NCBI GenBank assembly: GCA_040182905.1
Contig: JARQWU010000030.1
Coordinates: 1 to 63,496, forward strand
Source of the DNA: Barthelona sp. PAP020
Taxonomy: Eukaryota
Direction: 5' to 3'
DNA: 63,496 nt
The notes under the pieces are model-generated. The model searched no databases. It was not told where the DNA came from and was given only the letters and a program-made list of their open reading frames with translations. The translations under genes were made by a program, and so were the position numbers. Below are positions 427-29,836 of the stretch, piece after piece (within the stretch, counting starts at the first letter, position 1; the number at the start of each line of letters is the position of its first letter).

Positions 427-1640
427 CTAATCATCATCATCATCATTATCATCATCATCATGAATGTCACAAGTTTTTTCATCCATAAATGAGCGCATGT
501 TACCACCTTTAATCTTATTGATGTCAGCAAGGTTTCAATATGTATCCCCAATCATCTTACACTCCTCTTTATTCATACAAATACCAGTAGTCACCAATTG
601 TCTGATTATTTGAGTGCTTACATTGATGGCAATAAGATTCACAACACATAACCGCAACCTTTTGACAATTCAATGAGTTTGGATTGTGAGGCGTCATATT
701 CAGGGCAACTGAATAAATTCTAACAACATCACCTTCACATCTCTCACAAAATACCTGCCTGTTATCAGGTGATATATCAAACGAAAAATTGTGTACCATG
801 CAATGACAATGAATCTTTTGAATAAACTCAAAACTATCCACATTGAAAGAAGTAATATAACCATCAACAGACATAATAAATAGGATGTTTGGACTCACGA
901 AATGAAGAGAGAAAACTGGACTACCATTTTGAATGTATAAAGGAGGGATCCATCATCCATGTTCCAGAGTTTAACCTTTTTCCACAAATCACTAGCAGCT
1001 ATGATTCTTCTTGTTTCATAAAAATCAATGGATTTAACAGGAGCATTTTGATTGAAGGTGCAAATTTTGGGGAAATTGTTAGTATTAACTAAATTTACAG
1101 TTTTATCATGACTACAAGTAAAACTTTATCTCCCATCTGAAGAAAGTTTTATTTTGCAAATATGTCTGGAATGTATTTTTTCTTCTAAGATAATGCTATC
1201 TTGATTATATCCCATTTCCTCACAGTTCCATCACCATCACAAAAATTTACAAAATTGGAACAGAAAACGAAATTTCATGAACACAAGCATTATTCACAAA
1301 TCTGCCCAAAATAGAGAAATCTAGAAGGCTATAAATAATGATAGAACAATCCAAGGAACATGTTGCCAACTTTTGTCCATCTGGTGAAAATGAAACACCA
1401 TAAACCCCGTTTGTGTGATCTCTCAAAGCACGATTTAGTCTTCCACTTGCAACATCAAATGCTAGTGTTTCTTGATAATTAATAATAAGTAAGTATTTGC
1501 CATCTGACAAGTATTTCAAATCGTTAAAATGCTCGGGAGGCAAACCTTGAATTAACATCACATTTTCCTCATCAATTTTAGTAGAAAGTATCTAAATAAT
1601 TGTTTTTCTCACTATTTTGCCTTCTGATTCAACACTTATA
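427..1640 (-). pseudogene. WD40-repeat gene of the 'WDLxDINE' C-terminal-domain family, disrupted by frameshifts and stops
   Basis: WD40 fragments (LRDHTNGVYGVSFSPDGQKLATCSLDCSIIIY) lie in several frames. Manual translation of 427-670 gives KLIELSK...IIRQLVTTGICMNKEE...Y*NLADINKIKGGNMRSFMDE plus a poly-D tail, homologous to the C-termini at 30428 and 42846. The 5' boundary is approximate. Confidence 0.8.
430..462. repeat. (TCA)n/(GAT)n microsatellite encoding the acidic tail of the WD40 pseudogene
   Basis: atcatcatcatcatcattatcatcatcatcatg. Confidence 0.85.
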
Positions 1641-1767: not shown

Positions 1768-3006
1768 ATGACAAGTGAAAGAATAGTAGGCTATGAAAGA
1801 AATCTTCAAAATAATATTAAGTACGGAATGTATCCAGGAAAAGCAGAAGAAGATCATATTGGAATGTGGGTTGCTGATCAAGATTTAGAGATAGCTCCCA
1901 TTATTACTAAACACCTGTGTGATCGTATTGTGGACATTCCCAATTATGGTTATGAGGCTGCTCCTGAAAGCTTTTACAATGCGATTTTACAAAACAGTTT
2001 TGAACATAATATCAAAGATATTGACCGAAAAAACGTTTTATTCGTACCAAATGTATTATCTGGATTGATTGCTTGTCTTAATGAATTGACAAGTGTTGGA
2101 TCAACTGTTGTTTTGGCAAATCCCATATATTTTTCGTTTATTCCTCATATTTTGAACATTGGAAGACAGGTTAAAACAGTTCCTTTGCAAAAAGATAGTT
2201 CTGGGCATTTCATATACGATTTTGAACAATTGGAAGATGTTCTGTCAAATGATGATGTAAGTCTTTTTGTGTTTTGTAATCCACATAACCCTGGTTTTAA
2301 AGTGTTTACCGTGGAAGAAACATTGAGAATTACTGAACTTTGTGAAAAATATGGTGTTGTTTTTGTGAGCGATGAGATACACTGTGATCTTGTTTTAGAT
2401 GGGAGCCAATTTAACAGCGCATTATCTGTGTATGATAAAGCTATCATTCTCACATCTGTTTCAAAAACTTTTAATTTGGCAATGATTGAAACTGCATGGA
2501 TTCTCTGTAAAGATACATATTTTTTGAAAAGATTGAAGAAATATTCAACTTCTCATGGATTTTTCCCTACACCTTTTGCTACTGTAGCTACGACAACTGC
2601 AATTAATTTGGCCCAACCATGGAGAATGGAATTGATCAAATTTATCAATCATCATTTGGACCTATTTGAGAACTTGGTTAAAAAGACAAACGAAAAGTTT
2701 GATTTGAATATTGTTTTTGTCAGGCCACAAGCTTCTTATTTATTTTGGATTGACCTTGATGAAGTTTCTCAAGGAAAAGTAAGTGGCGATACTTATCAAA
2801 GAATATTGAGGGATGATTATAATATTTCTGTTTCTTCAGGGGATTCCTTTGGTTCAAAAGGTCGTGGTTGCATGAGAGTTAATTGCGCAATATCTGATGA
2901 AAGGTTTAATGAAGCTTTAATAAGATTTGAAAAGTTTTTTGAATATATCGCTTTAAATAAGGAAGAATTAATTGAAAGTGAGTGTGAAAAAAGAAATAAA
3001 ATGTAA
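1768..3006 (+). CDS. MalY/PatB-family PLP-dependent C-S lyase (cystathionine beta-lyase-like), bacterial type
   Basis: Motifs MWVADQD, YGY, FCNPHNP, SDEIHCDL, SVSKTFNLA (PLP lysine), PQASYLFWID and MRVNCA. First ATG is at 1768. Confidence 0.9.
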   Translation: MTSERIVGYERNLQNNIKYGMYPGKAEEDHIGMWVADQDLEIAPIITKHLCDRIVDIPNYGYEAAPESFYNAILQNSFEHNIKDIDRKNVLFVPNVLSGLIACLNELTSVGSTVVLANPIYFSFIPHILNIGRQVKTVPLQKDSSGHFIYDFEQLEDVLSNDDVSLFVFCNPHNPGFKVFTVEETLRITELCEKYGVVFVSDEIHCDLVLDGSQFNSALSVYDKAIILTSVSKTFNLAMIETAWILCKDTYFLKRLKKYSTSHGFFPTPFATVATTTAINLAQPWRMELIKFINHHLDLFENLVKKTNEKFDLNIVFVRPQASYLFWIDLDEVSQGKVSGDTYQRILRDDYNISVSSGDSFGSKGRGCMRVNCAISDERFNEALIRFEKFFEYIALNKEELIESECEKRNKM

Positions 3007-3803: not shown

Positions 3804-6800
3804 CTAATTGCTTATTTCATCAATAAAATTTGCAACGATTTCGGGATGGTCAAATATGTGTTGATGATCACAATCAATCGTTTTGATTTCAATTGTATCA
3901 GCATTGTTAAAGAAAGTTGCTAAACCATTGTGAATTCCTTGATCCATTTCAACCTTTTCAGTAGCCTTTAAGAGATAACACCTGGTGTTAAGCTTGATAT
4001 CTATCAGATTATTCCAAATTCTGGACTGCATCAACAAATTGTCCAAAACAAACACTTCATTTCTGAGCTCAAGTGCAGTCTTTCGATTGTTCAACTCATA
4101 CGCTTCCATCACTTGTTTAATAATCTCTTCCTCACTGCCAACTGGTAAATGAGACTTAAGGTTGATTGGATTATGTGAATCAATGATAACAACAGAATCT
4201 ACAGCAGATCCAGTTTTTTCAAGTTGTTGAGCAACCAATAAAGCAGCATTACCACCAAAAGAATATCCTCCAATAAAATACGGTCCTGAAGGTTGAATTT
4301 CTAAAATAGTTTTCAGATAAGAATCAACCAGGGCTTTCATTGAAGCAAAATGCATTTCCTTTATGTTTCCAAATAAAGGATCAGCCAATGCAACGATATT
4401 GAAGTTTTGCACTTTGTCCAATAAAGACAGGTATTCAGTTGCAGTACCATTTCCAGAGTGAATTAAGAATAAGTTAGGTTTATTCACCAATCCTGAAGAA
4501 ATCACTGAAGTTTTGATTGGTTGATTCATATTTTCAGTGGTTCTATTCTTGATAATACCTTCAATTGTAGGTTCTTCATTGAATTTGTTAATACTGATGC
4601 TAATATTCAATTCGCGTTTTAATTGAGACAATAACTTCATGACTAACAATGAATGTCCACCAATGTGGAAGAAATTAGTGACAGATGAAATGTGTTTGAT
4701 TGGAACCCTCAATAATTTACTCATAATATCTCCAATCTTATAGTGATCAATGGAATTGAAACCATAATCTTCAATGATAGTTTCTTCAATGTTTAAGAGG
4801 TCCTTCACATCAGAAATAGCCACAAGTTGATAACTGTTATCGAGTCTTTGAATGACAGATGATGTTAAATGTTTAGTTAGAGTCTTGAATTCATCATCAG
4901 TTTTGATTGTAACATATCCTTGACAACCCTTAAACACTTGTTCCTCATTTAATTCAGATGTGACACCTATATATCTGACAACTTCCAAATGCTTTTTGTT
5001 ACCAGTCATTAAAGGGAAAATGTCATGGGCAACAACAACATGAATGCTGGAAGAAGGATATTTCTTTTCCATATGATTAACATCATCCAATGTAACATCA
5101 CCTACAAGGATAAAGTTGGCAATTTCAACATTAGAACTGAAATTTAAGATGTCATTTTTGAATAAAAGAACATTTGTGGCATTTTCAGTTATGTTTGTTT
5201 CAAATTGAACATTCTTTCCACTCAAAAGACAAGCAAATAACAAAGAAAGAACATCACTAATTTGGGATGCCACAATAAGGATTTGATTTCCTTCTAATTT
5301 AGCAAAAATCCTTTGATATTCATAAATGGCATAGATGTATCTTGACATGGATATTTTTGTATCTCCATGAATTATATGCTTGTTGCTGATCACATTCTTA
5401 TCAATTGTAACATCTTTTCCTTTGAGAATGTTTTGAAGAATCAAATTGATATTCTCAACATTAATGTCATTAGTAATAGCCACATTGTTATCAATGGAGA
5501 CTTTCTCATCAATCATTAACGATCCATCAGTCCATTTTACATACCCATGCATAGATTCAATAAGATCAGCAAATGAAGGTGTATTCAACAACGAATTATT
5601 GAAGTGATATTCTTCAAGCAAATCTTTCTTAATTTCATTGAAATTTTGTGCAGTTGGTATTCTATATAAAACATTCATGAATAAATCAAGAACATACTTG
5701 ACATATTCATCATTTCCTTCAATATATGTGGCTTTAAAGGTAATACCTTCTTCCATGCTTACAGATATAACAAGAGGGAATTCAGTACGATCTGCGCCAT
5801 CAATTACTTCAAAAGGTACATCAGAATTGGTTTGTTCTTCAACATTTGAAGCTCTTGACCCATCAAAGACTAATAATGTATCAAACAAACTGCCAATACT
5901 GACACCAGTTTTTCTTGCAAGATTCAAAACTTCAATTAACTCATCAGTACTATGAGCATTTAATTCTTGAATATCTTCATTAGTTTTATGTAATAATTGT
6001 CTGATAGAACCATTCAAATTGTCAGTAACCAATGGTAAAGTGTTGACAAATGGTCCAATGATTTTATCAATATCCACTAAATCAATGCTACGTCCAGATA
6101 ATGTCAATCCAAAAACAGGTTTGGCTGAAGTCAATAAAGCCAATGTGATGCTCCATGACAATACAATTGTTGAAGTTAGAGGAATTCCAAGATCAGTAAC
6201 AAGTGAACTCAAATCATTGAAAACTTTGGATGGCAGTTCATGAATGATGCGTTTATTGGTCACATTATCAGTTGGTTTTGCCAATAAAGGTAAATTACAG
6301 GGTGAAACATTGCTCATTTTAGGTTTCCAATAATCTACATCAACAATAGGCTTGCTAAATACATGTTTGATATAATCTCGATAATTGCTCATCGGTACAG
6401 TTAATCCAATTCCATTGTAGAAAGAAACAACGTCATTGAATAACAAGGATGTTGAGTAACCATCAATGGTAAGATGATGATGCAACCATAACATATACTT
6501 TTCTTTTTCAAAGTCAATGATCACGAAACGATGAAGAATCTTGTCTTTACGACGAAGGTCAAACTTTTCTTTAGCTTCTTCAAACATGCAATCATTAACA
6601 ATTTCAATAATATCGCTCTTTTCTGCTGCAGGTAATTTGATAACTTTCCAATCAAATGAAATGTTTTTACGAACATAAAACAAAGGTTCATCAAAATCAA
6701 TAAGATACTGAGATCTCAACATTGGATGAATATCAAAAGTTTGTATAAAAGCTTGTTTTAGTCTGACAAGATTGATATCATTACTTAATTTGAAGATACG

Positions 6801-9800
6801 TCTTTCAAAATACTCATCAGTATTGTTATTCATCAGGTATCTCAATATCATACCCTTTTGAATACTGCTAACGGGAGATATAATCTCAAGATCTTTGATT
6901 TCATCAAAGAATGATGTGAAGTCATTTATATTCATGGATAATTCGTCTAAAGTAAAACCAAAATCATTGGAAATCCATCCTTGTTTTGAAGCTGATTCAG
7001 TTAAAATACAAGAACAAATATCTTTGACAAAAAGCTTGGTTTCTTTAACTAACAATTTAGCTTCTTTTTCAGAAACTAATCTTGAGTTATAATTGACATT
7101 AATTGATAAAATTCCATTGAAAACACCAATGTTGAAATCAATAACATAAGGGAAAGTGTTCTTTTTGGAAACATCACTTCCAACACCACCAACAATTTCG
7201 AATTTATCAGAAGCATCGTCAGTGGTTTCATCGGTCAACACACCAAGATAATTGAATCCGATTTCTGTGATGGATTCAGCATTGACATATTCATCAGTCA
7301 AATATCTTAAATTTTGATATCCTATACCACCTTGAGGAACTCTCTTTAACAATTGTTTGATCATTCTAACTTTTTCAAACATCGAAACATTGGAAGACTG
7401 AAGTTCAACAAGAACAGGATAAATAGTAGTGAACCACATAACATTGTTAGAAACATCCATTCCTTCAAAATCTCTTCCATGACCCTCTAAATTAACTCTA
7501 AATTTGGAGATATCAAAGATTTTATTGAGTCCCAAAACAACAGCGGTAAATATGACATCCATAGGAGTAAATGCAGATATATTGGAGATATTGTTGACAA
7601 GTAATTTTGTTTCATCAACATTTAATGCTTCTTCAACAGCTGGGGCTTCAGCATAAGTGCACTTATTGATTGAATGTGCAATATGATCAACCTTTGCTAA
7701 AATAACTTCATGCCAGTATTGTTTTTCTGCAGCAGAAACCTTATACAAAGTCCATTCTTCCAGTTTTCTTCTCCATCCTCCAAGTGACACATTCAAAGCA
7801 ACATTTTTAGCCTTTTTAAAGGTAGACAATTCCAGATAAATGCGATTAATCTCAGGAATTAAAACATGCCATGATACAGCATCAACAATGAAGTGATGAA
7901 GTACTAAAGTCAAATAATCACATTCAGAAGTTCTCAACAACAAAGCACGAGCCAAAGGAGCCTCAGTTAGAATAATTTCAGTCTGAATTGTAACACCTTC
8001 ATTGATCAAATCTTCCTTTGTTGTTTCAATTAAAGGTAAATCAAAATAAACGTCTTTTGCTTCAGCAAATTTGAATGATTGCTGATCTTCACTCAATGAC
8101 ATTCTCAAAGATGAGAAACTAGAAATCAAAACTTGCAAAACATCTTGCATAATGGAATAATGGACATGTCCAGGACATCTGATCACAAAGGCTTGATTGA
8201 AATATTCTGGAACAGCATGCTTTTGTTCAAAGAACCACTTGTGAATAGGCCACAATGGCATCGTTGCATTTTCAGTCAAATCAGTTTTTTGATTCTCTTG
8301 AATTCGTGCTATGAGAGCCAAACGTCTCAAAACAGGATTTCTGAAAATATCTTGTGGAGTAATTTGAATATCAAACGCTCTTGCACGTGAAACAAGTTGC
8401 AAAGACAAAATCGAATCACCACCAAGTTTGAAGAAATTGTCATCCAAATTGACATTTGGAACTTTCAAAAGGTCCGACCAAATGCCTGCCAATACAACTT
8501 CATTGTTGGTTCTGGGTTTTTCACCGGTAGTAATAGGTTCAGCAGATGCAAACATATGTTGAGACAAGAAATCAGAGGAAGATAAAAGTTTTCTGTTTGC
8601 TTTTCCTGCAGGTGTCAATGGAATTGATTTCAATGTGATGATCAATGAAGGAATCATATATTCAGGCAAAGTTTTTCCAAGGTGTTGCCTAACAGCTTCA
8701 GAAGAAACATTTGCTTCACCAACAAGCAATAAATATGCAACAAGCCTTTGCCCCAATTCTTCATCTTTGTTGACAACAACAATAGTTTGTTGAACAACCT
8801 GCATAGAAGTGATAGCAACTTCAATTTCACCCAACTCGATTCTGTTGCCTCTGATCTTGACCTGTTGGTCGACACGACCGACGTAGACGAGGTTGCCATC
8901 ACGGGTCCAGTGCACGAGGTCACCGGTCTTGTACATGCGTTCTGATCCTGGGAAGGGACATGGGACGAAGCGAGATGCGGTGAGCTCTGGCTGTTTGTAG
9001 TATCCACGGGCCAAGCCATCACCGGCGATGTAAAGTTCACCAGCAACGCCAATGGCACAGAGTTGCATGTTCTTGTCCAAAACATAAAGTTGGTTGTTTG
9101 CGACTGGACGTCCAATTGGAGGCGCGACGCCAATGTTTTCAAGGGTGCAACGGAAGAATGAAGAATCGATTGTTGTTTCAGTGGGACCATACAAGTTGTA
9201 CAGTTCTGCATGTCCGAGACGAGTCAAACATGTTTGAGCAGTTGTTGAAGGCAATGCTTCACCTGATTGAACGATCAGACGAAGAGAAGGCAAGGAACCA
9301 GGCTCAACGAATTCAAGGAAGGCACCAAGCATAGAAGCAACGAAATGCATGACAGTGATCTTGTGCTGAGAAACAAAGCGAATTATTTCATCAGGGTTAT
9401 TTTGTGCACCTGCTGGAAGAAGACACAACGTGGCTCCAAATAAGAAAGGTGCAAAGAGCTCCCAAACTGAGACATCGAATGAATATGGAGTCTTTTGGAT
9501 GATGCGATCTTCAGCGCAGAAACCGAGGTTACGCTTCCAAAGTAGACGATTCACAACTGAACGATGTTCAACGCAAACACCCTTTGGTGTACCGGTTGAA
9601 CCAGATGTGTAGATAACGTACATGAGGTCATGTGTGTTGACGGGAAGGTTAAGATTCGATGAGTCGTTGTTTATCCATGCAGATGAATCCTCAATGTTAA
9701 TAAAGTTCATGTTCAATCCCTCAAATATGCTCATAAACTTGGGTTGACCGATAATCGTTGTGGTTTCCGAATGCTCCACGAAGTAGCGCAAACGCTCACT

Positions 9801-12800
9801 TGGATATGCAGGATCAAGTGGAAGATATGCAGCTCCAGATTTCAGGATAGCCCACAGCACAATTGGAAGATCAGCGCAACGTTCCATGCACACACCGACA
9901 GTTGTGTTGTTATTCAGCGTCTGCAAGTGACGGGCAAGGCGGTTCGCCTTTGCATTGGCATCCCTGTATGTGTAAGACACGTGGTCATCAGCAATCGCCG
10001 TTTTCTCAGCGTGCATATCAACAGCATCCTCAATAAGCCCGTGAATGGTCGTCTCAGGGAAACTTACAGGCAGAGGGTTGAAGGAATGAAGGAATAATTT
10101 TTCAGAACTTGGTAAAATGGCATAGTTCTTCACAGACATCAAATTGTCTTTCAGAATTTCATCGACCAAAACATTGAAACGTTTCATCATTGATTCAATA
10201 GATTGCTTGGAAAATAGTTCGTCAGAATACTCTAATTCGATCTTCATTTCCTTGTTTGGTTGTACCATACAAGAAAAAGTCATGTCCAATTTTGATCCAG
10301 CTTGACCAATATCACAAGGTGAAATTGAAAAACCATCAAACTTGGGCATTACATCAGTTTGCATTAACATATTAAACATAATATTAAAAACTGGATTTCT
10401 ATTTGAAACACGACTGTCCAATTTATCAACAATCTGATCAAAGAAAACTTGTTGATGTTTTAAAACACCAACATTTGCATCAATGACTTGTTTCAACAAG
10501 TTATTAAAGGATTGATTTTCATCAATCAGTACATCAATGGGTAAAGGATTAACAAAATACCCAACAGTATCATTAAATCTACCATCCCAACGACCATGGG
10601 TGGGAAGACCAAACAAAAGATCCTTTTGATTGGTATGCTTGTATAACCAAATGCAAAATATGGTCATCATAACCGAATTCAAAGTGGTGGAGTTTTGTTG
10701 ACAAATTCGTTCTAATTGGTGAACTGTTTGGGCCGATATATTGAAAAAAACACTTTCACCTGTAAATTTCAATTGTGTTGGTCTAACAAAATCTGTTGGT
10801 AATTCAGTAGCCTGTTTACCACTTATTCTATCAACGAAATAATCCAAAGAACTATTATCTTGAGTTACGGATGAACTGTAATCAATATAAGAGTATTGAA
10901 GTGGTTCAAGAACAACATTGTTGTATAATTTAGCCAAATCATCAAGAACAATTTGATCACAAGATCCATCAATACAAATATGATGTGTGACCATTAAAAA
11001 TTGTTGTGATGAAACATAAAACTTCATAATAGGTCCATTTTCTAAATCAACAGGCAAAGAGCGTAATTCACTAATTGCAAGTTTTTCACAGGACTCAAAA
11101 TAGAACATTTCATCAACTGGTTTTACAGTTTGAATTAATTTTCCATCTGAAGTTTGTTTATACAATGTACGGAATGAAGCATGACGTTCAATAAATTGTT
11201 TACATGCTTTTTCAAATCTAATAAAGTCTACATCTCCTTCAAAATTGAACAATGAACTGTAGTTGTAAAACGTAGAAGTTGGTTCAAAAATTTGCAAATA
11301 ATACAATGCAGCTTGGGATGGAGACAAACCTGAAGATAGTTTTGAACTCATAGCCAATGAAGTTTCTTCAACTTTAATCAAACTAGTACAATGAGCCGCA
11401 AGGACTTTCAACGAAGAAGCCAAAAAGACATCCGACACATTGACAGACAAACCAATCAAACTCAACTCATGAATCATCATCATGACCAAAACAGAATGTC
11501 CACCCAACGAGAAGAAATTATCAGACATGGAAATGACTTCATTATTCAACAGTTTTTTCACAATAGCAAGTACAGCTCTTTCATTATCAGTGATAGGTTC
11601 AACCAAATCTTTCCTAGCTGTAGTAGCACAATAATTATCAACATTGGGCAATTTTTTTCTGTCAACTTTGCCATTGTTAGTCAAAGGAATGGTATCAAGT
11701 TCAATAAAATAAGAAGGAATCATATAGAGTGGTAAATTCATTTTTAAATACTCAATAAAATTTTCTAAATCCAATTCATTGTGAGATACATAGTAGCATG
11801 CCAAATCAAGGGTTGTAGAGCCAGATTTAGTAACAGCAATGACAACAATGTCCTTAATATCAAGATATCTTGATGCAACAGCTTCAATTTCACTCAATTC
11901 AACACGGAAACCACGAATCTTAACTTGAGTATCATCTCTACCAACAAATATCAAATCTCCATCCCAGTTCCAGCTGGCTAAATCACCAGTAAGGTACATT
12001 TTACCCTCTTTGAATGGGTTATGCACAAATTTATCTCCTGTAAGTTCTTCATTGTTAATATATCCTTCAGATAAACCATCACCAGAAATAACTAATTGTC
12101 CGATAGTACCTACAGGACAACGGTTCATATTGTCATCTAAAATGTAACAAATTTGGTTGGCAAGTGGTTTTCCAATTGATAAATTAGCATCATCAATGGA
12201 CAAAACTTTAGCAGTTGTATCAACAGCAGCTTCTGTAAGTCCATAAGAATTAACCAATTTACCATTTGGAAATATGGATAAAAAGTGTTTTGCATCATCA
12301 ATAGACCAATAATCTGAACCACAAGCAACTCTACAAAGGCTTTTAAAAACTTTATTTGTCATTTTCAATCCACGTAAAACAGCGGGCACGAATTCAGCAA
12401 ATTGTGGTTGGATATCATCAATTAAAGAAGCCAATTTGGTTGAGTCTAACAAAAGTTCACGATCAACAATAATGAGATTACCACCGGAACCAAGAGATCT
12501 AACAATATCACCTGTACAAACATCAAAACTAAAAGAAGCCATTTGCAAATGCTTCCATTGTGGTTCAAGTCCATAGAAATGTTTCCAAGCAAAATATTGA
12601 TTGGTAATGGCCATTTGACCAACTTTAACTCCTTTAGGTTTGCCGGTGGTACCTGAAGTGAACAAAACATAGGCAAGATTTGCCACATCAATTTCTGGAA
12701 GATGAACATTTTTCATAACATCAAAAGAAATTTCAGACAAACAAAGGGTTTGAATGTTTTTAAAATACTTTGCAGTACTTTTACATGTAATAACTAAAGA

Positions 12801-14264
12801 AGAATTAGATTGTTCTAGAATTGAACTGATTCTTTCTTCAGGAAACTTGGAATCGATAGGTAAATATGTATTACCTGAAAATAATACAGCTAACATAGCT
12901 AGAATCATATTCACAGATCTATCAACACAAATACCAATAATCTCATTTCTGTTTGGAATAAGTGACACCAATTGAGCAACAAACAATTGTAATTCATTGT
13001 AAGTATATGATCCATTTTCGTCTGTGACTGCAATTTTATCAGCATACAATTCAAACGCCTCTCTAAACAAAGATGGCAATGAATGATGAGAACATTCAAT
13101 CTTTGGACCATTTTCAAAAGAATCAAGTAATTGCTTCATACCATCAGATAATAAAACAATGGAAGAAATTCTTTGATTCAAAAAGAAAGGATCAGACAAT
13201 TGAACAAGCAGATATTCATACATGTCCAATAGTTGTTCAATATCTTTGCTGAAAAGCTTTGAGGTTACCTTCAAAACAATTTCCTCCTCCTCGAAAATAA
13301 CTTCCAAAGAAAGTGGATATTCGCTTGAATTGGAATTAGCATTGAAAACAAACATGACTTGATCATATTTCTTGAATGATTCGTCATAAGGAGCTGTTGA
13401 ATTTTGAAGTCTTTGATAAGCATTTTTTACAGTTTCATTATTCATTGAATTGTACATATGAACAAAATTGGGAATATTGACAAGGAAATTGTTCATATTA
13501 AAAAGTTTGCTGAGCACAACTTCAAGAGATATCAAGCAAATCGAATTAGAAGAAATTTTCAAGGATTCGACTCCTTTTTGAATTATATTCAAAGAAATCT
13601 TACGTTCACAAACTGTGGTTTGATTGGTAAATCCATGCACTGGAATAATTTCCAAAGAATCAATGGAAGGATTCTTAAAGTCGCTTAAATTAAAGGGGTT
13701 TCCAAACAAAATACTTTGAATAGCATGATAAATAACAGCAAAATAACTTGTTTTTTCATATCGATGATGAGAATTAATTTGATTGCAAATCATTTGATGA
13801 GTTAATAATTGATACTCATCTTGATCAAAATACATGCAAAAACCATCATTTTCATTGTAATTTAGGTTTAAATTTGAATCATCAAACTCATTTAATCTGG
13901 AAAGATATTCATTTTCAAAAACACAAGTAACATCTTCATAAACATTACTTTCTTTGGTAAATAACAATTTAATAGAAGTATCAATTGGAATATTCCTTGA
14001 ATAAATGAATAAAGAAATAGCTTTACATTTTTGAATGCCAAATATTAAGGGAAAAAAATTAATATCAAAAAAATCCATATCAATACCCACCTTATCATCA
14101 ATACCAACATCTAAACTCATTAAATATCGGGCAATTTGATTAGATTTCTTGTTTAAATTATCAAAACTTAAAGTTTTTCCATAATCAATTATGGCATCAT
14201 TTTCACCATATTTTTTAATTTGTTCTTCAAACCCAGCGATAATATTAACAAAATTTTGGTTCAT
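3804..14264 (-). CDS. Non-ribosomal peptide synthetase: (degenerate A, partial C)-A-T-C-A-T-E-C-(degenerate A)-T-TE
   Basis: A motifs FTSGTTGKPKG and YTSGSTGTPKG, NxYGxTE, GRxDxQVKIRG. T motifs GGHS, GGDS, GGHS. C motifs HHICIDG and HHLTIDG. E motifs HHFIVDAVSW and NLEGHGR. TE motif GYSFGG. The ORF is uninterrupted; probable ATG at 14264. Confidence 0.96.
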   Translation of the reverse strand: MNQNFVNIIAGFEEQIKKYGENDAIIDYGKTLSFDNLNKKSNQIARYLMSLDVGIDDKVGIDMDFFDINFFPLIFGIQKCKAISLFIYSRNIPIDTSIKLLFTKESNVYEDVTCVFENEYLSRLNEFDDSNLNLNYNENDGFCMYFDQDEYQLLTHQMICNQINSHHRYEKTSYFAVIYHAIQSILFGNPFNLSDFKNPSIDSLEIIPVHGFTNQTTVCERKISLNIIQKGVESLKISSNSICLISLEVVLSKLFNMNNFLVNIPNFVHMYNSMNNETVKNAYQRLQNSTAPYDESFKKYDQVMFVFNANSNSSEYPLSLEVIFEEEEIVLKVTSKLFSKDIEQLLDMYEYLLVQLSDPFFLNQRISSIVLLSDGMKQLLDSFENGPKIECSHHSLPSLFREAFELYADKIAVTDENGSYTYNELQLFVAQLVSLIPNRNEIIGICVDRSVNMILAMLAVLFSGNTYLPIDSKFPEERISSILEQSNSSLVITCKSTAKYFKNIQTLCLSEISFDVMKNVHLPEIDVANLAYVLFTSGTTGKPKGVKVGQMAITNQYFAWKHFYGLEPQWKHLQMASFSFDVCTGDIVRSLGSGGNLIIVDRELLLDSTKLASLIDDIQPQFAEFVPAVLRGLKMTNKVFKSLCRVACGSDYWSIDDAKHFLSIFPNGKLVNSYGLTEAAVDTTAKVLSIDDANLSIGKPLANQICYILDDNMNRCPVGTIGQLVISGDGLSEGYINNEELTGDKFVHNPFKEGKMYLTGDLASWNWDGDLIFVGRDDTQVKIRGFRVELSEIEAVASRYLDIKDIVVIAVTKSGSTTLDLACYYVSHNELDLENFIEYLKMNLPLYMIPSYFIELDTIPLTNNGKVDRKKLPNVDNYCATTARKDLVEPITDNERAVLAIVKKLLNNEVISMSDNFFSLGGHSVLVMMMIHELSLIGLSVNVSDVFLASSLKVLAAHCTSLIKVEETSLAMSSKLSSGLSPSQAALYYLQIFEPTSTFYNYSSLFNFEGDVDFIRFEKACKQFIERHASFRTLYKQTSDGKLIQTVKPVDEMFYFESCEKLAISELRSLPVDLENGPIMKFYVSSQQFLMVTHHICIDGSCDQIVLDDLAKLYNNVVLEPLQYSYIDYSSSVTQDNSSLDYFVDRISGKQATELPTDFVRPTQLKFTGESVFFNISAQTVHQLERICQQNSTTLNSVMMTIFCIWLYKHTNQKDLLFGLPTHGRWDGRFNDTVGYFVNPLPIDVLIDENQSFNNLLKQVIDANVGVLKHQQVFFDQIVDKLDSRVSNRNPVFNIMFNMLMQTDVMPKFDGFSISPCDIGQAGSKLDMTFSCMVQPNKEMKIELEYSDELFSKQSIESMMKRFNVLVDEILKDNLMSVKNYAILPSSEKLFLHSFNPLPVSFPETTIHGLIEDAVDMHAEKTAIADDHVSYTYRDANAKANRLARHLQTLNNNTTVGVCMERCADLPIVLWAILKSGAAYLPLDPAYPSERLRYFVEHSETTTIIGQPKFMSIFEGLNMNFINIEDSSAWINNDSSNLNLPVNTHDLMYVIYTSGSTGTPKGVCVEHRSVVNRLLWKRNLGFCAEDRIIQKTPYSFDVSVWELFAPFLFGATLCLLPAGAQNNPDEIIRFVSQHKITVMHFVASMLGAFLEFVEPGSLPSLRLIVQSGEALPSTTAQTCLTRLGHAELYNLYGPTETTIDSSFFRCTLENIGVAPPIGRPVANNQLYVLDKNMQLCAIGVAGELYIAGDGLARGYYKQPELTASRFVPCPFPGSERMYKTGDLVHWTRDGNLVYVGRVDQQVKIRGNRIELGEIEVAITSMQVVQQTIVVVNKDEELGQRLVAYLLLVGEANVSSEAVRQHLGKTLPEYMIPSLIITLKSIPLTPAGKANRKLLSSSDFLSQHMFASAEPITTGEKPRTNNEVVLAGIWSDLLKVPNVNLDDNFFKLGGDSILSLQLVSRARAFDIQITPQDIFRNPVLRRLALIARIQENQKTDLTENATMPLWPIHKWFFEQKHAVPEYFNQAFVIRCPGHVHYSIMQDVLQVLISSFSSLRMSLSEDQQSFKFAEAKDVYFDLPLIETTKEDLINEGVTIQTEIILTEAPLARALLLRTSECDYLTLVLHHFIVDAVSWHVLIPEINRIYLELSTFKKAKNVALNVSLGGWRRKLEEWTLYKVSAAEKQYWHEVILAKVDHIAHSINKCTYAEAPAVEEALNVDETKLLVNNISNISAFTPMDVIFTAVVLGLNKIFDISKFRVNLEGHGRDFEGMDVSNNVMWFTTIYPVLVELQSSNVSMFEKVRMIKQLLKRVPQGGIGYQNLRYLTDEYVNAESITEIGFNYLGVLTDETTDDASDKFEIVGGVGSDVSKKNTFPYVIDFNIGVFNGILSINVNYNSRLVSEKEAKLLVKETKLFVKDICSCILTESASKQGWISNDFGFTLDELSMNINDFTSFFDEIKDLEIISPVSSIQKGMILRYLMNNNTDEYFERRIFKLSNDINLVRLKQAFIQTFDIHPMLRSQYLIDFDEPLFYVRKNISFDWKVIKLPAAEKSDIIEIVNDCMFEEAKEKFDLRRKDKILHRFVIIDFEKEKYMLWLHHHLTIDGYSTSLLFNDVVSFYNGIGLTVPMSNYRDYIKHVFSKPIVDVDYWKPKMSNVSPCNLPLLAKPTDNVTNKRIIHELPSKVFNDLSSLVTDLGIPLTSTIVLSWSITLALLTSAKPVFGLTLSGRSIDLVDIDKIIGPFVNTLPLVTDNLNGSIRQLLHKTNEDIQELNAHSTDELIEVLNLARKTGVSIGSLFDTLLVFDGSRASNVEEQTNSDVPFEVIDGADRTEFPLVISVSMEEGITFKATYIEGNDEYVKYVLDLFMNVLYRIPTAQNFNEIKKDLLEEYHFNNSLLNTPSFADLIESMHGYVKWTDGSLMIDEKVSIDNNVAITNDINVENINLILQNILKGKDVTIDKNVISNKHIIHGDTKISMSRYIYAIYEYQRIFAKLEGNQILIVASQISDVLSLLFACLLSGKNVQFETNITENATNVLLFKNDILNFSSNVEIANFILVGDVTLDDVNHMEKKYPSSSIHVVVAHDIFPLMTGNKKHLEVVRYIGVTSELNEEQVFKGCQGYVTIKTDDEFKTLTKHLTSSVIQRLDNSYQLVAISDVKDLLNIEETIIEDYGFNSIDHYKIGDIMSKLLRVPIKHISSVTNFFHIGGHSLLVMKLLSQLKRELNISISINKFNEEPTIEGIIKNRTTENMNQPIKTSVISSGLVNKPNLFLIHSGNGTATEYLSLLDKVQNFNIVALADPLFGNIKEMHFASMKALVDSYLKTILEIQPSGPYFIGGYSFGGNAALLVAQQLEKTGSAVDSVVIIDSHNPINLKSHLPVGSEEEIIKQVMEAYELNNRKTALELRNEVFVLDNLLMQSRIWNNLIDIKLNTRCYLLKATEKVEMDQGIHNGLATFFNNADTIEIKTIDCDHQHIFDHPEIVANFIDEISN

Positions 14265-14589
14265 TTGAGAAAGAAAAAAATAATAAATTTTCATTCAAAG
14301 GAATTTTGTGGACAATATTCAATCAAAAAAAAATTCCCATTTAAACACGAATAACGCAAAATATTGCCGTAAACGTCTTATTTATAAAAAAAAATAACGA
14401 AAAAAAGCTAAAAAAAAATCGTGAAATCAGAAAAATTGATTGCTAAAGTAACAACCTTAAAAAACTAAGGAAATAGGGATTTTTGCACCCAATAATTTGT
14501 TAGTTTATTATCATAAAGGTATAATGGACTTAGATCAATCTGAAAAGTGTGGCTTTGAACAGGGAAGAGAAAAAAAGGGCGAAGAGAAT

Positions 14590-16344
14590 TTATTGGTGCT
14601 TTACTAAGTTATTGATGAGCTTTAAAGTTCTGAAAGTGTGTTTTGAATCCTTTTGTCGTGATGAGAGTGCTGCACAGAAGAGGGTTTTTATTTTTTTAGA
14701 ATTTTGAAAGCAATTGTACAACACTCTGTTGAGAATGGAACTTTTGAAGGGTGAAGAGACGGTTTCACTATTTTGTACAAAATCAAAGAGTTCCAACAGG
14801 GCATTAAAATCTTGCTGAAGGTTGTCAGCGATTCTTTCATCATAATTGTCTGAATGATGAATTACATTCTCAAAATCTGTGCAAGCCAGATCGACAAAAG
14901 ACAACTTTGACTTTTGAAGAGATGACAGATTTTTTAGCTCAATACACAGAACAATATGGCTCAAAGCGCATCTGTTGCTATTTTCACTAGTTCTTTTGGT
15001 TCTGTGAACCATTATTGGTCGGATTTTCTCCAAAACATCTGTAAAACTGTACACAACTATTTTTTTCAAACCAGAAACAAAAAAGCCATTTGGACCGCTT
15101 TTTTTCAAGTGCTTTATCTGGCTATTGTCAAACAAATCAAATACCTGATTGTCAAACAATTCGATACAACTGATTTTCATCAGCATTCTCACATGATACT
15201 GCTCAATTAGATTGAAGACAGTTTCGAGACTACGCGTGCAGACCCCGCTTTGGTTCATTTCGTCACCAAAGAGGATGGCCGATCTTCCAATGTTGTTTTG
15301 CCCACAGGTAAATACATTGCAATTGAAGCCATTAAAAAGCAGCTTGATTGACTCCTCAAATTCCTTCACATACATATCCCGCTGGCTGAGGGAGTTGGGA
15401 ATGATTGAGCTGAAACGATACGAGCGCACTTCGTTAAACTCATTTTCGTAAGATAACCGACCATCGCTTCCATTTCCATTGTATCTCAAACAGGAAGTGT
15501 TGTTGTTGGTGTCGATCACAGAAATTCTCGGTAGAACTCTGACAGCACAGCCACCATGCTTAATTTCAATCAGATTCTGATGTATGCGAAGCGATTTTGT
15601 CTGTTCTTCACTCAGTTGAAGACCAATTTGCTTGTTTGCACGAACCAAGCGTGAAAGCTCCTTTTCCATGTCACTGATTTGTTTGAGTGATTGTTCGTAA
15701 TACTGAGAATACTGCAGAGGAGTCAACCCTTTGTTTCGATGGTGCTTGTCCATGATCACCTTTAAAGCCCTGTTTTCATCACTGAGACTCCTTTTCTTCT
15801 GGTCAAAATCATTTATAACGTTTATCAAATGATCATTTTCCTTGCATAAAAACTCATACTGCTTTGCCAGTGTATGGTCGTGTTCAATAGGCACAACCTC
15901 CGCAGTTTTATTCTTTAAATCGGTCAATTCGCGGTCCTTTATTTTGAATATATGCGCTAACACACCCAACTCAAATTGTTCCCGTGATCCAATCCGAACT
16001 TGCTCTTTGGAATTCACAAGCAACTTCTTGCTCGATTGAACTCCCGTGTAGCTGGTGGTTTCTGTATCTTGAACATTGGAACCATCAACTCTTTCCTTAA
16101 ACTCCAACACCAAACGAGTTCCATCAGTAAAATTCAATTGGGACGCAGTAACGTGTGATTCCAAAATCACGCTATTGTATGATATTTCAAAATCGTCAAT
16201 AGACACATTTTTCAACGCCTTCGACAAATCTCTTTTGATTTTGGAAATTTTCAATTTTGGCAGATCCTTTGACTTCGCTCCAATCTTATATGTTCGTTCA
16301 CTTTTCGGATTATAAACAAAAAAATTCAAAACATCACTGGTCAT
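14590..16344 (-). CDS. C-terminal kinesin-motor-like protein with degenerate catalytic motifs, N-terminal ubiquitin-like region and coiled coil
   Basis: Kinesin motifs GFNCNVFTCGQ, ISCIELFDNQVFDL, VSGL and SKLSFVDLA. The P-loop reads GQNNIGRS. Confidence 0.8.
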   Translation of the reverse strand: MTSDVLNFFVYNPKSERTYKIGAKSKDLPKLKISKIKRDLSKALKNVSIDDFEISYNSVILESHVTASQLNFTDGTRLVLEFKERVDGSNVQDTETTSYTGVQSSKKLLVNSKEQVRIGSREQFELGVLAHIFKIKDRELTDLKNKTAEVVPIEHDHTLAKQYEFLCKENDHLINVINDFDQKKRSLSDENRALKVIMDKHHRNKGLTPLQYSQYYEQSLKQISDMEKELSRLVRANKQIGLQLSEEQTKSLRIHQNLIEIKHGGCAVRVLPRISVIDTNNNTSCLRYNGNGSDGRLSYENEFNEVRSYRFSSIIPNSLSQRDMYVKEFEESIKLLFNGFNCNVFTCGQNNIGRSAILFGDEMNQSGVCTRSLETVFNLIEQYHVRMLMKISCIELFDNQVFDLFDNSQIKHLKKSGPNGFFVSGLKKIVVYSFTDVLEKIRPIMVHRTKRTSENSNRCALSHIVLCIELKNLSSLQKSKLSFVDLACTDFENVIHHSDNYDERIADNLQQDFNALLELFDFVQNSETVSSPFKSSILNRVLYNCFQNSKKIKTLFCAALSSRQKDSKHTFRTLKLINNLVKHQ

Positions 16345-21788: not shown

Positions 21789-23063
21789 TTATAAATTGAG
21801 ATTCTGTTCCAACATTCGCTTCACTGCAGGGATGTGATGGTTGATCGACGTCATTTCGCTTATGTCGGAGACGAAGCTGTTAAACGAGTCCAAGTACTGT
21901 CTTGCTTCGCTTAGTCTTCCGCCATTGCAAAGAGTGACGGCATAGTTCAAGTGAATCAATGGATTGTCGGGGTCCAAATGAAGTGCTCTTTGAAACGCAC
22001 GACACGCGTTACTGAAATCAGACAAATGTGCGAGTGCAATTCCTAAGAACATCAAACCTGGTGAATATTTGCCATTTAAGGATGCCGATGCAGACAAATG
22101 GTGGAATGCAGAAGCGAATTGCTGCCTGTTGAGATACACAAGCCCAAGATTAAAATTTATTCTCCACTCAAACGGAGACAGACTCAATGCCTTCTTCAGA
22201 CAGGCAATAGCTGATATATAATCCTTTTTCAGGAAGAAACACATACCGATGTTGTTCCACAGCTGGGGAGATGCAGGGGAATTCACTGCGGCAATGCGGT
22301 ACTTCATCAGAGCAACATCAGCATCACCAGCGTTCTGTAAAATGGATCCTGCAGCCAAAATTGTTTCTGACTTGGAGGGATCAAGCGTCAGCGCATTACC
22401 AAGCGCGTCAAATGCCTCTGTTGGCTTTCCCATCTTTAAATACAACAAGCCCAAAGCAGTCAGCAAATCCGAACTATCGGGAGTAAACGCCAATGCATTA
22501 TTAAACGCCTCAAGGGCCTCGTCAAAACGCTCTTCTTCGATCAAAAGATATCCCAACTCTAGATAGAATTTGTTATGTTTGTCAAAGCTTAAAGCGGTCT
22601 CCAAACATTTGACGGCATCATCGGGTTCGTCCAAATAGCGGTAACACTGAGCTCTGAAATAGTGAATCTCTGCAGTGTTCATGCCCAATTTAATTGCTTC
22701 GTCAAATGTGACGAGGGCTTCTTCGTGTCGACCAAGAAGAAAAAGAGATCGTCCGATTTGCTTTAAACTCTCGATATTATTGGAATTCAGCTTGGACACG
22801 GTTCTAAAATACTTCATTGACTCTTCGATCTTTCCCTCTTTTCTCAATATCAGTCCTTTTGCATACAAAGCATACTCAGCTTTTCCCTCGCTCTCCTGCA
22901 ACACTGAATCTATCAGTTCAGAACATTTCTCGAAGTCATTGGTAACATACAAATGGTGGATCTCCCAATTGTACTGATAGTTGAAGTAATTTGGTCTTGT
23001 CAACAAGTTCTTCAACTGGGATGGAAAATCAGCTGGCAATTGGTCCTTTGATAATGAAAACAT
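21789..23063 (-). CDS. BBS4: BBSome TPR subunit BBS4
   Basis: TPR array with BBS4-type segments NWEIHHLY, LKQIGRSLFLLGRH, AFDALGNALTLDP, DVALMKYR and SPQLWNNIGMCFF. Confidence 0.92.
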   Translation of the reverse strand: MFSLSKDQLPADFPSQLKNLLTRPNYFNYQYNWEIHHLYVTNDFEKCSELIDSVLQESEGKAEYALYAKGLILRKEGKIEESMKYFRTVSKLNSNNIESLKQIGRSLFLLGRHEEALVTFDEAIKLGMNTAEIHYFRAQCYRYLDEPDDAVKCLETALSFDKHNKFYLELGYLLIEEERFDEALEAFNNALAFTPDSSDLLTALGLLYLKMGKPTEAFDALGNALTLDPSKSETILAAGSILQNAGDADVALMKYRIAAVNSPASPQLWNNIGMCFFLKKDYISAIACLKKALSLSPFEWRINFNLGLVYLNRQQFASAFHHLSASASLNGKYSPGLMFLGIALAHLSDFSNACRAFQRALHLDPDNPLIHLNYAVTLCNGGRLSEARQYLDSFNSFVSDISEMTSINHHIPAVKRMLEQNLNL

Positions 23064-29224: not shown

Positions 29225-29398
29225 AATTGTTTCCAAGCCAAGAAGCACTGTGCGTATGAGTGAATGAAAAAGAATAGTGTTTATTTGGTTAAAGGTTTTC
29301 GAGGACCGATTGATCTGTTGAAAAACTTTAGATTTTCTGAGGAAAAGTTTAGACTTTGAAATTTTGCTTTTTGCAAAATTACAATAAATAAGAATGAA
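29225..29398 (-). repeat. Dispersed ~175-bp repeat, copy A (inverted relative to B and C)
   Basis: Approximate reverse complement of 29663-29836 (e.g. gaagcactgtgcgtatgagtgaatgaaaaagaatagtgtttat). Confidence 0.92.
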
Positions 29399-29549
29399 AA
29401 ATATAGTTGTTTCACAACTGGACCAAATTAGCTTTTGAATTAACAAAAAGAAATTATAATCAAATGAGAATTGAATTTTACAATTCTATTGAATCCATAT
29501 TGTAATTGATTAATTAAAAAATTGGTCAAGTTGTGAAACAACTATATTT
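29399..29549. repeat. ~31-bp inverted repeat pair nested between copies A and B
   Basis: aaatatagttgtttcacaactggaccaaatt (29399-29429) versus aaattggtcaagttgtgaaacaactatattt (29519-29549). Confidence 0.9.
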
Positions 29550-29662
29550 ATTTACAAAGAAAAAGCAATCAGAAAAAACTCATTTCATTAAATCTCAGCC
29601 ACAGAAAATAAGTGGCTGCAATTGAATCTTAATCATCAAGAATGAAAATTTTGGAAAAATTC

Positions 29663-29836
29663 TTCATTCCTATTTTTTTGTATTTTTGCAAAAGCAAAAT
29701 TTTAAAGTTTGAACTTTACCTTGGAAAATCTAAAGTTTTTCAACAGATCAATCGGGCCTCGAAAGCCCTTCACCACATAAACACTATTCTTTTTCATTCA
29801 CTCATACGCACAGTGCTTCTTGTCTTGGAAATAATT
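29663..29836 (+). repeat. Dispersed ~175-bp repeat, copy B
   Basis: gcaaaagcaaaattttaaagtttgaactttaccttggaaaatctaaagtttttcaacagatcaatc...ctcatacgcacagtgctt. Confidence 0.92.

What the first reader, a model, noticed from the sequence alone, without database searches (positions are those of the whole stretch)
3804..14264. Multimodular NRPS with an epimerase in a protist genome; predicted Orn-type + D-Ser peptide
Seen: an intact 3.5k-aa bacterial-style NRPS embedded among eukaryotic genes. Reading specificity residues by manual alignment to GrsA gives A1 = DVGEAGSVD(K), close to the ornithine code DVGEIGSIDK. A2 = DVWHVSLID(K), matching the serine code DVWH(L/F)SL(I/V)DK. A2 is followed by T(GGDS) and an E domain, which implies D-Ser. 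Known: multimodular NRPSs are typical of bacteria and fungi and rare in heterotrophic flagellates. Inference: an undescribed D-amino-acid-containing small peptide (siderophore-like, antimicrobial or signal).
Basis: partly seen in the sequence, partly recalled or inferred. Interest (0 to 1): 0.8.

Follow-up and report, generated by a model that had tools for sequence, protein, structure and literature searches.

The report
Peptide assembly line in anaerobic flagellate
An oxygen-shunning, bacteria-eating flagellate carries a transcribed, bacterial-style peptide assembly-line gene among its own genes, predicted to make a short ornithine/D-serine peptide that is possibly antibacterial; the gene was already listed in a paper's supplementary table but is not analysed in that paper's text.

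Summary
Confirmed, with corrections. The 10.5-kb ORF is intact and sits among eukaryotic genes. Outside one block its codon use matches the host (r=0.96). No bacterial relative exceeds about 48% identity. An EukProt transcript of Barthelona sp. PAP020 (Parabarthelona vacuolata, an anaerobic metamonad) matches residues 852-3494 at 99.4%. Williams et al. 2024 list what appears to be this gene as an 'LGT NRPS' in a supplement, with no mention in the text.

Only two of four A positions look functional: A relic, C relic, A1-T-C-A2-T-E-C, A relic, T-TE. A1 (DVGEAGSVDK) groups with diamino-acid domains (Orn likeliest; Dab or Lys possible). A2 groups with Ser domains. E and the following D-specific C keep their catalytic motifs. 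The last carrier has no working A, so the product is likely a short Orn-D-Ser-X peptide, or the dipeptide. A siderophore is unlikely.

New here: the Ser A-core (aa 1401-1820) has sharply different codons, bounded by the C-A linker and the A8 hinge. A second transcript joins a different N-terminal half at aa 1403, which suggests module shuffling inside this genome. Product, PPTase and role are untested, and short-read misjoining is possible.

The parts
3804..14294 (-). NRPS ORF, 3496 aa from Met1; 3486 aa from Met11 at 14264; no introns needed
   Evidence: Length 10461 nt from 14264 equals the published model PAP30g00040, and the first 400 residues shown read the same by eye
13761..14264 (-). 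A-domain relic (aa 11-178): N-terminal part of an A core with the P-loop missing
   Evidence: HMM 28.8 bits vs at most 3.6 in shuffles; hhalign probability 95%, 155 columns, gap at the TSGSTG loop
13119..13727 (-). C-domain relic (about aa 190-392, C-terminal half, no HHxxxDG); bounds approximate
   Evidence: ESM Atlas Condensation cluster 0.95, 120 of 256 features shared, for aa 90-395; weak match to a C-domain end in LgrA
11619..13097 (-). A1, code DVGEAGSVD(K): diamino-acid (Orn/Dab/Lys) class
   Evidence: 20 of the 24 best non-self hits start DVG[E/D]; DVG clade support 99; Glu4+Asp9 = 'mode 2' of PMC12042044
11379..11582 (-). T1, GGHS, Ser934
10095..11330 (-). C2, HHICIDG, LCL-like
   Evidence: 58 of its 60 best hits are C domains not after an E; outside the DCL clade, own placement unsupported
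8559..10067 (-). A2, code DVWHVSLID(K): serine
   Evidence: 22 of 23 best bacterial hits read DVWH; Ser clade support 96; pocket region hits FscH, Txo1/2, EntF
8835..10094 (-). Codon-anomalous block, aa 1401-1820 = the A2 core, from the C-A linker to the A8 hinge; the second transcript joins at aa 1403 (nt 10088)
   Evidence: GC3s 0.44 vs 0.22, dLL 44 vs at most 11 in 30 shuffles; TTC/TAC/AAC/ATC 55 of 82 vs 165 of 721, p=2e-15, block chosen post hoc
8304..8507 (-). T2, GGDS, Ser1961 (E-associated carrier type)
6960..8264 (-). Epimerase domain, HHFIVDA (His2134) and EGHGRD (Glu2270)
   Evidence: (59 of 60 best hits are E)
5640..6884 (-). C3, D-donor (DCL) class, HHHLTIDG
   Evidence: 47 of 60 best hits follow an E; DCL clade support 99; best PDB hits SrfA-C and McyB
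4770..5627 (-). ~290-aa insert, probably a decayed A core; no A catalytic motifs
   Evidence: Sequence tests not significant. Leads only: ESM 0.78 AMP-binding; top 5 VIA rows are acyl/aminoacyl-adenylate-forming-type chains (4 named as such), Z 4.7-5.9, on a pLDDT-38 model
4545..4757 (-). T3, GGHS, Ser3215
3807..4487 (-). Thioesterase, putative triad Ser3345-Asp3372-His3477; last 99 aa differ at 15 sites from the transcript version
14590..16344 (-). Upstream neighbour: kinesin-motor gene (host context)
   Evidence: exact sequence held by EukProt
1768..3006 (+). Downstream convergent neighbour: PatB-like PLP C-S lyase; no shown link to the NRPS
   Evidence: TIGR04350 256 bits, below the 340 cut-off; exact sequence held by EukProt

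Best explanation
This is an intact, transcribed NRPS gene embedded among host genes of an anaerobic barthelonid flagellate, likely acquired long ago from bacteria, that is predicted to join a diamino acid (most likely L-ornithine) to serine, convert the serine to the D form, likely add a third residue on its last carrier and release a short cationic peptide, plausibly used against bacteria. Shown: ORF, domain order, retained catalytic motifs, A-domain clades, host-like codons, transcript over aa 852-3496. Inferred, in order: A1 loads Orn/Dab/Lys on T1; C2 forms the L-L bond on T2; E epimerises Ser; the D-specific C3 condenses D-seryl-T2 onto aminoacyl-T3; because the A of module 3 is dead, T3 is loaded in trans by A1, A2 or a paralogue's A domain; the TE hydrolyses the peptide or cyclises it via the Orn side-chain amine. 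The gene looks like a mosaic member of a host NRPS family whose Ser A-core was pasted in by recombination. My odds by step: nuclear gene 0.93; A2=Ser 0.9; A1=diamino acid 0.85 (Orn 0.55); E active 0.8; three residues 0.45 vs two 0.35; antibacterial role 0.4.
For: Host context and amelioration: RSCU r=0.96 between the NRPS outside the A2 core and 11 low-GC host genes; GC 0.34 in a window mostly 0.25-0.40. No close bacterial source: after the 99% EukProt hit, the other 119 listed hits are 27-33%. A1 found no relative in GTDB. A2's best hits are 45-48% in GTDB and metagenomes; the C3-TE part reaches at most 29% among 150 listed. Transcript P0002 is 99.4% identical over 2643 aa, and the published PAP020 RNA-seq was poly-A selected (PMC7542792 passages). 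A sister genus has a long-read-assembled NRPS gene, a 13,820-character protein cell with FPKM 15.76. Substrates. E/DCL pairing. C3, T3 and TE motifs survive while the A between them decayed, and the TE histidine motif is kept in both tail variants, which suggests selection on the last module. Mode-2 diamino A domains are described from gramicidin, bacitracin, polymyxin and paenibacterin.
Against: No product, enzyme assay or PPTase shown; none of the 61 ORFs/frames scanned in the window is a PPTase, MbtH-like protein or exporter. In-trans loading of T3 has no direct support. No transcript-derived protein for aa 1-851, which holds most of A1, appeared among the best 120 shorter proteins. The A1 code differs from DVGEIGSID at two positions and A1 is only about 40% identical to its relatives. 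A source of ornithine in barthelonids was not found in the papers read (0 hits). Two different N-halves join at the same point in transcripts, and the published PAP020 assembly is Illumina-only at 29x, so the A1-A2 linkage rests on short reads. The antibacterial role is by analogy only.
Confidence: 0.45

Rival explanations
1. Dipeptide or diketopiperazine synthetase: only A1 and A2 load. Orn-D-Ser is passed to T3/TE or cyclises, giving linear Orn-D-Ser or cyclo(L-Orn-D-Ser), much as GliP uses a terminal C-like domain and an extra T.
For: Only two catalytically complete A domains. GliP has 2 A, 2 C and 3 T domains and cyclises Phe-Ser with CT-T3; D/L dipeptides are released as DKPs off bacterial lines (PMC11610984 passages).
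Against: C3 groups with ordinary DCL domains (support 99). Fungal CT domains were not in that tree. A full TE follows T3, which GliP lacks.
Confidence: 0.25
2. A decaying or misjoined paralogue: a truncated copy of a larger NRPS with no product of its own, or a short-read join across a repeated Ser A-core or 3' block.
For: Relic domains at both ends. A second transcript (P0124, 4377 aa) is identical from aa 1403 on except 2 sites plus a 15-site TE tail. Both transcripts share a tail that differs from the window's. The other published PAP020 NRPS model has no start Met and, by its 18,772-nt/6,257-aa lengths, apparently no stop.
Against: A 10.5-kb stop-free frame in 34% GC DNA; all catalytic motifs of the seven core domains retained. 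The window and transcript P0002 agree on the C2-A2-T2 join. No second A2 copy with another 3' half among proteins under 1922 aa; a longer one could have fallen below the list.
Confidence: 0.17
3. Hydroxamate siderophore synthetase (Orn-Ser chelator).
For: Orn and D-Ser occur in many siderophores (recalled). A2's pocket resembles FscH and EntF, and P. aeruginosa NRPS P0057 has the same Ser code.
Against: A1 has the mode-2 code of cationic antibiotics, not the N-hydroxy-Orn codes I recall. No N-hydroxylase, acyltransferase or transporter among the ORFs scanned. Orn N-hydroxylases need O2, and Fe(II) is soluble in anoxic sediment (established knowledge).
Confidence: 0.05
4. Nocardicin-like chemistry: C3's extra histidine (HHHxxxDG) dehydrates the seryl donor to give a beta-lactam or dehydroalanine.
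For: C3 reads HHHLTIDG and its donor is Ser. The NocB C5 motif is recalled; the paper was not held.
Against: 55 of 224 bacterial C domains after an E in my set have the same extra His, so it is not diagnostic. An intact E sits between Ser and C3.
Confidence: 0.04
5. Bacterial contaminant joined to a protist contig.
For: Cultures contain bacteria (PMC13087550 and PMC7542792 passages); Illumina-only published assembly.
Against: Host codon use (r=0.96); eukaryotic genes 296 nt upstream and no bacterial cluster genes; long, diverged branches; NRPS also in the long-read genome of a sister genus.
Confidence: 0.02

Closest known systems
[quoted passage not shown] 2024 (PMC11316075)
   Same: Same length (10461 nt, 3486 aa) and the same first 400 residues by eye: very likely this gene.
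   Different: Only a table row. The main text and the preprint have 0 hits for NRPS or 'ribosomal peptide'. No architecture, substrates or recombination analysis seen; one large supplementary PDF could not be read.
Bacterial linear NRPSs with mode-2 diamino-acid A domains (gramicidin S, bacitracin, polymyxin, paenibacterin; nearest here Paenibacillus alvei P0003, Brevibacillus P0185, Haliangium P0190)
   Same: A-T-C-A-T-E-C...T-TE logic, Glu4/Asp9 pocket, GGDS carrier before E, DCL after E, TE release.
   Different: Only 36-41% identity in A1. Two live modules instead of 5-13, dead A relics, no cluster of tailoring or export genes, eukaryotic anaerobic host.
GliP (gliotoxin; A-T-C-A-T-C-T)
   Same: Two A domains, three T domains, Ser as second residue, last carrier without an A.
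   Different: Here an E domain, a bacterial DCL-class C and a TE. GliP ends in CT-T3 and makes an L,L-diketopiperazine.
Horizontally acquired NRPS/PKS of bdelloid rotifers (PMC11258130) and springtail ACV synthetase (PMC10531068)
   Same: Bacterial-derived multimodular NRPS domesticated in a non-fungal eukaryote, duplicated, and proposed to recombine within the genome; the rotifer genes are induced by a pathogen.
   Different: Those are aerobic animals. This is an anaerobic metamonad with a 10-13 Mb genome. No orthology shown: the Adineta protein P0129 lies near the DCL pair only with support 84 and long branches.
Natural A-core exchange in bacterial NRPSs (Baunach et al. 2021, PMC8097286)
   Same: The anomalous block covers the A core and stops at the A8 hinge, leaving Asub and T native-like, the pattern that paper reports.
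   Different: Seen here by codon signature and transcript junction in a protist; the donor copy is not identified.

Membership tests
Multimodular NRPS | A, T and C domains in modular order on one polypeptide | tested here: met
Multimodular NRPS | A domains with P-loop, A4 Asp, YGxTE, TGD and A10 Lys | tested here: met
   A1 and A2 have all five; the two relics lack them
Multimodular NRPS | Carrier serines and release domain | tested here: met
   Ser934, Ser1961, Ser3215; TE Ser3345/Asp3372/His3477 by alignment
Multimodular NRPS | Phosphopantetheinylation by a host PPTase | not testable with these tools
   no genome held; none among the window ORFs scanned
Multimodular NRPS | Makes a peptide | not testable with these tools
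   needs biochemistry or LC-MS
Strictly colinear NRPS (one A per module) | Every C-T pair has a working A | tested here: not met
   aa 2890-3175 has no A motifs; C3-T3 spacing 606 aa vs 854 for C2-T2
Epimerase (E) domain | E clade, HHxxxD His, EGHGR Glu, preceded by GGDS carrier, followed by DCL | tested here: met
   the D-A variant also occurs in 27 of 282 bacterial E motifs counted
Mode-2 diamino-acid A domain | Acidic residues at code positions 4 and 9 | tested here: met
   Glu4, Asp9; chain length (Dab/Orn/Lys) not resolvable from sequence
Serine A domain | DVWHxSLxDK code and Ser clade | tested here: met
Hydroxamate siderophore NRPS | N-hydroxy-Orn-type A domain plus N-hydroxylase/acylase and uptake genes | tested here: inconclusive
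   A1 code is of the antibiotic class and no such genes are in the window, but the rest of the genome was not searchable
GliP-type DKP synthetase | Terminal CT-T3 without TE | tested here: not met
   C3 is DCL-class and a TE follows T3; it may still work like one
Nocardicin-type beta-lactam NRPS | HHHxxxDG C domain acting on a seryl donor (recalled) | tested here: inconclusive
   motif present, but so in 55 of 224 C-after-E domains; E intervenes
Laterally acquired nuclear gene | Host flanks, host codons, bacterial affinity, host transcript | tested here: met
   donor lineage not identifiable
Laterally acquired nuclear gene | Long-read support across the junctions | not testable with these tools
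   no sequencing run was listed

The most novel reading that the evidence does not exclude
Barthelonids, anaerobic metamonads with some of the smallest free-living eukaryote genomes, keep a family of NRPSs (3.5k, at least 6.3k and about 13.8k residues) and diversify it by bacterial-style A-core exchange inside their own genome. They would make D-amino-acid, cationic peptides against prey or intracellular bacteria, with this gene a rebuilt short line that loads an A-less carrier in trans. This would be secondary metabolism in a lineage thought to have only reduced metabolism.
Probability: 0.35. Interest if true: 0.8.

Novelty: new variant of a known kind. Interest (0 to 1): 0.58.

Why it matters
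Metamonads are textbook cases of metabolic reduction, and my searches of the held library found no paper that discusses NRPSs in them. A transcribed, epimerase-containing NRPS, plus a ~41-kb relative in a 10.2-Mb genome (about 0.4% of it), implies that a bacterivorous anaerobe pays heavily to make non-ribosomal peptides. Both strains have been kept in culture, so product and role are directly testable. The gene also looks like a natural A-core swap with sharp boundaries in a eukaryote, which bears on how NRPS lines evolve. The gene's existence was already tabulated; the anatomy, the substrate classes and the mosaic signal are what is added here.

Tried and rejected
No whole genome is held, so PPTase, ornithine supply and paralogue loci were not searched. 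No sequencing run was listed for window 5500-15400; this is no evidence either way, and read laying could not be used.

Recent bacterial origin of A2: not supported. Best bacterial identity is 45-48%, the branch is as long as A1's (1.01 vs 1.04), and codon use does not correlate with 6 sampled bacterial A domains (r -0.19 to -0.09). An unsampled donor is not excluded.

The insert as an A relic by sequence alone: not significant. The HMM scored below shuffles; hhalign gave 18.4 vs a shuffle maximum of 20.2; a post hoc sub-profile was matched or beaten by 16 of 200 shuffles, and pairwise z was at most 2.2. AlphaFold without an alignment gave pLDDT 37.7, and Foldseek found nothing at E<=0.001.

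The HMMER search of 50% representatives with C3-TE gave only multi-module NRPSs at 23-29% and no close eukaryotic relative in the 150 listed. The search with insert-T-TE among proteins of 1064-3035 aa gave 49 hits, none covering the insert apart from the PAP020 transcript. The giant PCE and PAP191g00010 proteins were not retrieved, and their supplement cells are cut at 400 characters, so their relation to this gene and to P0124 is open.

The beta-lactam idea was dropped as non-diagnostic. No meaningful DNA repeats flank the gene. No earlier findings of this scan. The exact code DVGEIGSVDK is in no held paper.
Full report
OBSERVATION. Pfam gives three condensation-family stretches, three AMP-binding, three carrier and one thioesterase. 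The neighbours are eukaryotic and mostly long single ORFs: kinesin 296 nt upstream, CFA20, a TPR protein, SRP72, Nup98, PP2C, a GPN GTPase and an L5-family ribosomal protein. A PatB-like C-S lyase lies convergent downstream.

WHOSE GENE. The best hit among 2113 significant proteins is an EukProt Trinity protein of Barthelona sp. PAP020 (P0002, 2645 aa), 99.4% identical to aa 852-3494; the other 119 listed are 27-33%. The kinesin and PatB proteins are in EukProt letter for letter; 5 of the 7 exact look-ups, including the full NRPS, were not found. PAP020 is now Parabarthelona vacuolata, an anaerobic bacterivorous metamonad (PMC13087550, passages). The supplement of Williams et al. 2024 (PMC11316075; I saw passages, section 6, and spreadsheet rows cut at 400 characters) has three 'LGT NRPS' rows. 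One is PAP30g00040 (10461 nt, 3486 aa, same start by eye), one is PAP191g00010 (6257 aa), and one is g3506 of strain PCE (13,820 characters, FPKM 15.76). The main text and the preprint never mention them; one large PDF and one scanned PDF could not be read. So the gene was tabulated but, as far as I could see, not analysed. Library searches for NRPS with metamonad, Fornicata or barthelonid names returned no paper on the subject (listings only).

NOT A CONTAMINANT. Outside the A2 core, codon use correlates at r=0.96 with 11 low-GC host genes of the window. A1 found no relative in GTDB by exact patterns. A2's best hits were 45-47% in GTDB (78 loci listed) and up to 48% (partial) in metagenomes (78 loci). 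The C3-TE part reached at most 29% among 150 listed representatives. The published PAP020 transcriptomes were poly-A selected (PMC7542792, passages); that the EukProt entry comes from them is my inference, and such cultures carry bacterial RNA, so the transcript alone would not settle origin. The PCE genome, which also has an NRPS, is long-read assembled. No sequencing run was listed, so junction reads could not be checked.

ANATOMY. The order is A relic, C relic, A1-T1-C2-A2-T2-E-C3, insert, T3-TE.
- aa 11-178 match the start of an A domain but lack the P-loop. The rest of the N-terminus has condensation-like features without HHxxxDG.
- A1 reads DVGEAGSVD(K). Of its 24 best non-self hits among 1512 A-domain matches, 20 start DVG[E/D], and it sits in that clade with support 99 in a quick tree of 77 rows chosen partly for closeness to A1 and A2. 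Glu4 plus Asp9 defines 'mode 2' diamino-acid binding in gramicidin, bacitracin, polymyxin and paenibacterin lines and admits several chain lengths (PMC12042044, section 14). Two Paenibacillus proteins with near-identical codes show a five-module pattern consistent with paenibacterin's orn-val-thr-orn start (PMC4397504 passages). Hence diamino acid is secure and Orn is the best guess.
- A2 reads DVWHVSLID(K), groups with Ser domains (support 96), and its pocket hits FscH (solved with Ser-AMP), Txo1/2 and EntF among the top solved structures.
- T2 is GGDS, like 244 of 245 carriers before an E. The E keeps His2134 and Glu2270 and falls in the E clade (support 100). C3 falls in the DCL clade (99).
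- The 290-aa insert has no A motifs and no significant sequence signal. ESM features (0.78) and the top five VIA rows on a poor model (Z 4.7-5.9, pLDDT 38) point weakly to a decayed A core.
- T3 keeps Ser3215, and the TE keeps a putative Ser-Asp-His triad.

MOSAIC. GC at synonymous third positions is 0.44 in one block versus 0.22 elsewhere (dLL 44; maximum 11 in 30 coarser-stepped shuffles). A codon-level scan puts the edges at aa 1401 and 1820, the C-A linker and the A8 hinge. The block prefers TTC/TAC/AAC/ATC (55 of 82 vs 165 of 721), CGY (19 of 22) and avoids TTA (1 of 43). It resembles the ribosomal-protein gene in CGY and CTY use but not in GAG or TAC, and correlates poorly with both host sets (r 0.32 and 0.27) and with 6 bacterial A domains. 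Three host genes also have GC3 near 0.45, so GC alone is not foreign. Independently, a second isoform (P0124, 4377 aa) has a different N-terminal half (partial A-T-E-C-A-T-C) and becomes identical at aa 1403. From there it differs at 2 sites up to aa 3397 and at 15 in the last 99 residues, a tail both transcripts share. Bacterial NRPSs mostly exchange A cores and spare Asub and T (PMC8097286, passages). The simplest reading is that the Ser A-core was pasted in by recombination and that at least two host loci share it or the whole 3' block. Against over-reading: Trinity can build chimeras across a shared block, the published genome assembly is Illumina-only at 29x, no second A2 copy and no transcript piece for aa 1-851 appeared among the best 120 proteins under 1922 aa, and the paralogous E, DCL and LCL domains are only 26-27% identical to this gene's and no closer to it than to bacteria by BLAST score (their pairing in the tree carries a long-branch warning). 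One or several acquisitions cannot be told apart.

HOW IT LIKELY WORKS. A1 loads a diamino acid, C2 joins it to Ser on T2, and E makes the Ser D. C3 is D-specific and needs an amine acceptor. With its own A dead but C3, T3 and TE motifs intact, T3 is most simply loaded in trans (precedents in fungal ferrichrome and yersiniabactin lines are recalled, not checked), giving Orn-D-Ser-X released by the TE. The close rival is a dipeptide or diketopiperazine, as GliP makes with 2 A and 3 T domains (PMC11610984, passages). The role is inferred only: mode-2 domains come from cationic antibiotics, the host eats bacteria, and horizontally acquired NRPSs of bdelloid rotifers are induced by a pathogen (PMC11258130, passages). 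A siderophore is unlikely in an anaerobe with no N-hydroxylase nearby. The extra His in C3 recalls nocardicin chemistry but occurs in 55 of 224 comparable domains. No PPTase, exporter or tailoring gene is among the window ORFs scanned, and the genome was not available.

VERDICT. A real, transcribed, long-domesticated NRPS in an anaerobic metamonad. It works like a bacterial D-amino-acid peptide line, is a member of the multimodular NRPS family by every sequence test I could run, and is not a strictly colinear one. Its existence is tabulated in print; its anatomy, predicted substrates and A-core mosaic appear not to be. New variant of a known kind, interest 0.58.

Noticed in passing
PMC11316075 supplement file 3, PCE sheet, g3506: A 13,820-character NRPS protein, about 41 kb or 0.4% of the 10.2-Mb Microbarthelona vorax genome, FPKM 15.76. 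Its first A domain looks by eye like the Ebony/beta-alanine type (recalled resemblance). No NRPS row appears in the three Skoliomonas sheets.
   Followed up: partly
P0124 aa 1-2283 (EukProt PAP020): A second NRPS half (partial A-T-E-C-A-T-C) with its own epimerase and an A domain with an unusual code, about DPL(C/I)LGGVQ, at most 34% identical to anything fetched. It may be the 3' end of the open-ended model PAP191g00010.
   Followed up: partly
window 1768-3006: PatB-like PLP C-S lyase, bacterial-type, host-like GC3, present in EukProt; convergent with the NRPS, 797 nt away. Possibly another lateral acquisition.
   Followed up: partly
window 563-1458 and 55516-56419: Two WD40-repeat sequences, 68% identical at DNA level and inverted relative to each other, both split over several frames (pseudogenes or intron-containing).
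   Followed up: no
window 33227-37114: A 1295-aa reverse transcriptase/RNase H-like ORF with GC3 about 0.4, probably a retrotransposon.
   Followed up: no
window 29225-29402, 29659-29836, 32656-32823: Three ~170-nt copies at 86-89% identity, the first two inverted, around an ankyrin-repeat gene; MITE-like.
   Followed up: no
window 14590-16344, 21789-23063, 23222-24991: Kinesin, the TPR gene and SRP72 have GC3 of 0.42-0.48 against about 0.22 for most neighbours: strong gene-to-gene compositional heterogeneity.
   Followed up: partly
PMC11316075 supplement file 3, PAP020 sheet: The 'mito-Cpn60' transcripts look by eye like bacterial groEL, one with a groES-like reading frame just upstream, so possibly from co-cultured bacteria.
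   Followed up: no
P0125, P0126, P0129, P0132: The closest TE relatives (30-39% identity) include a Logan contig, an ankyrin-fused NRPS, a bdelloid rotifer protein and a Legionellales protein; too weak to name a donor.
   Followed up: partly
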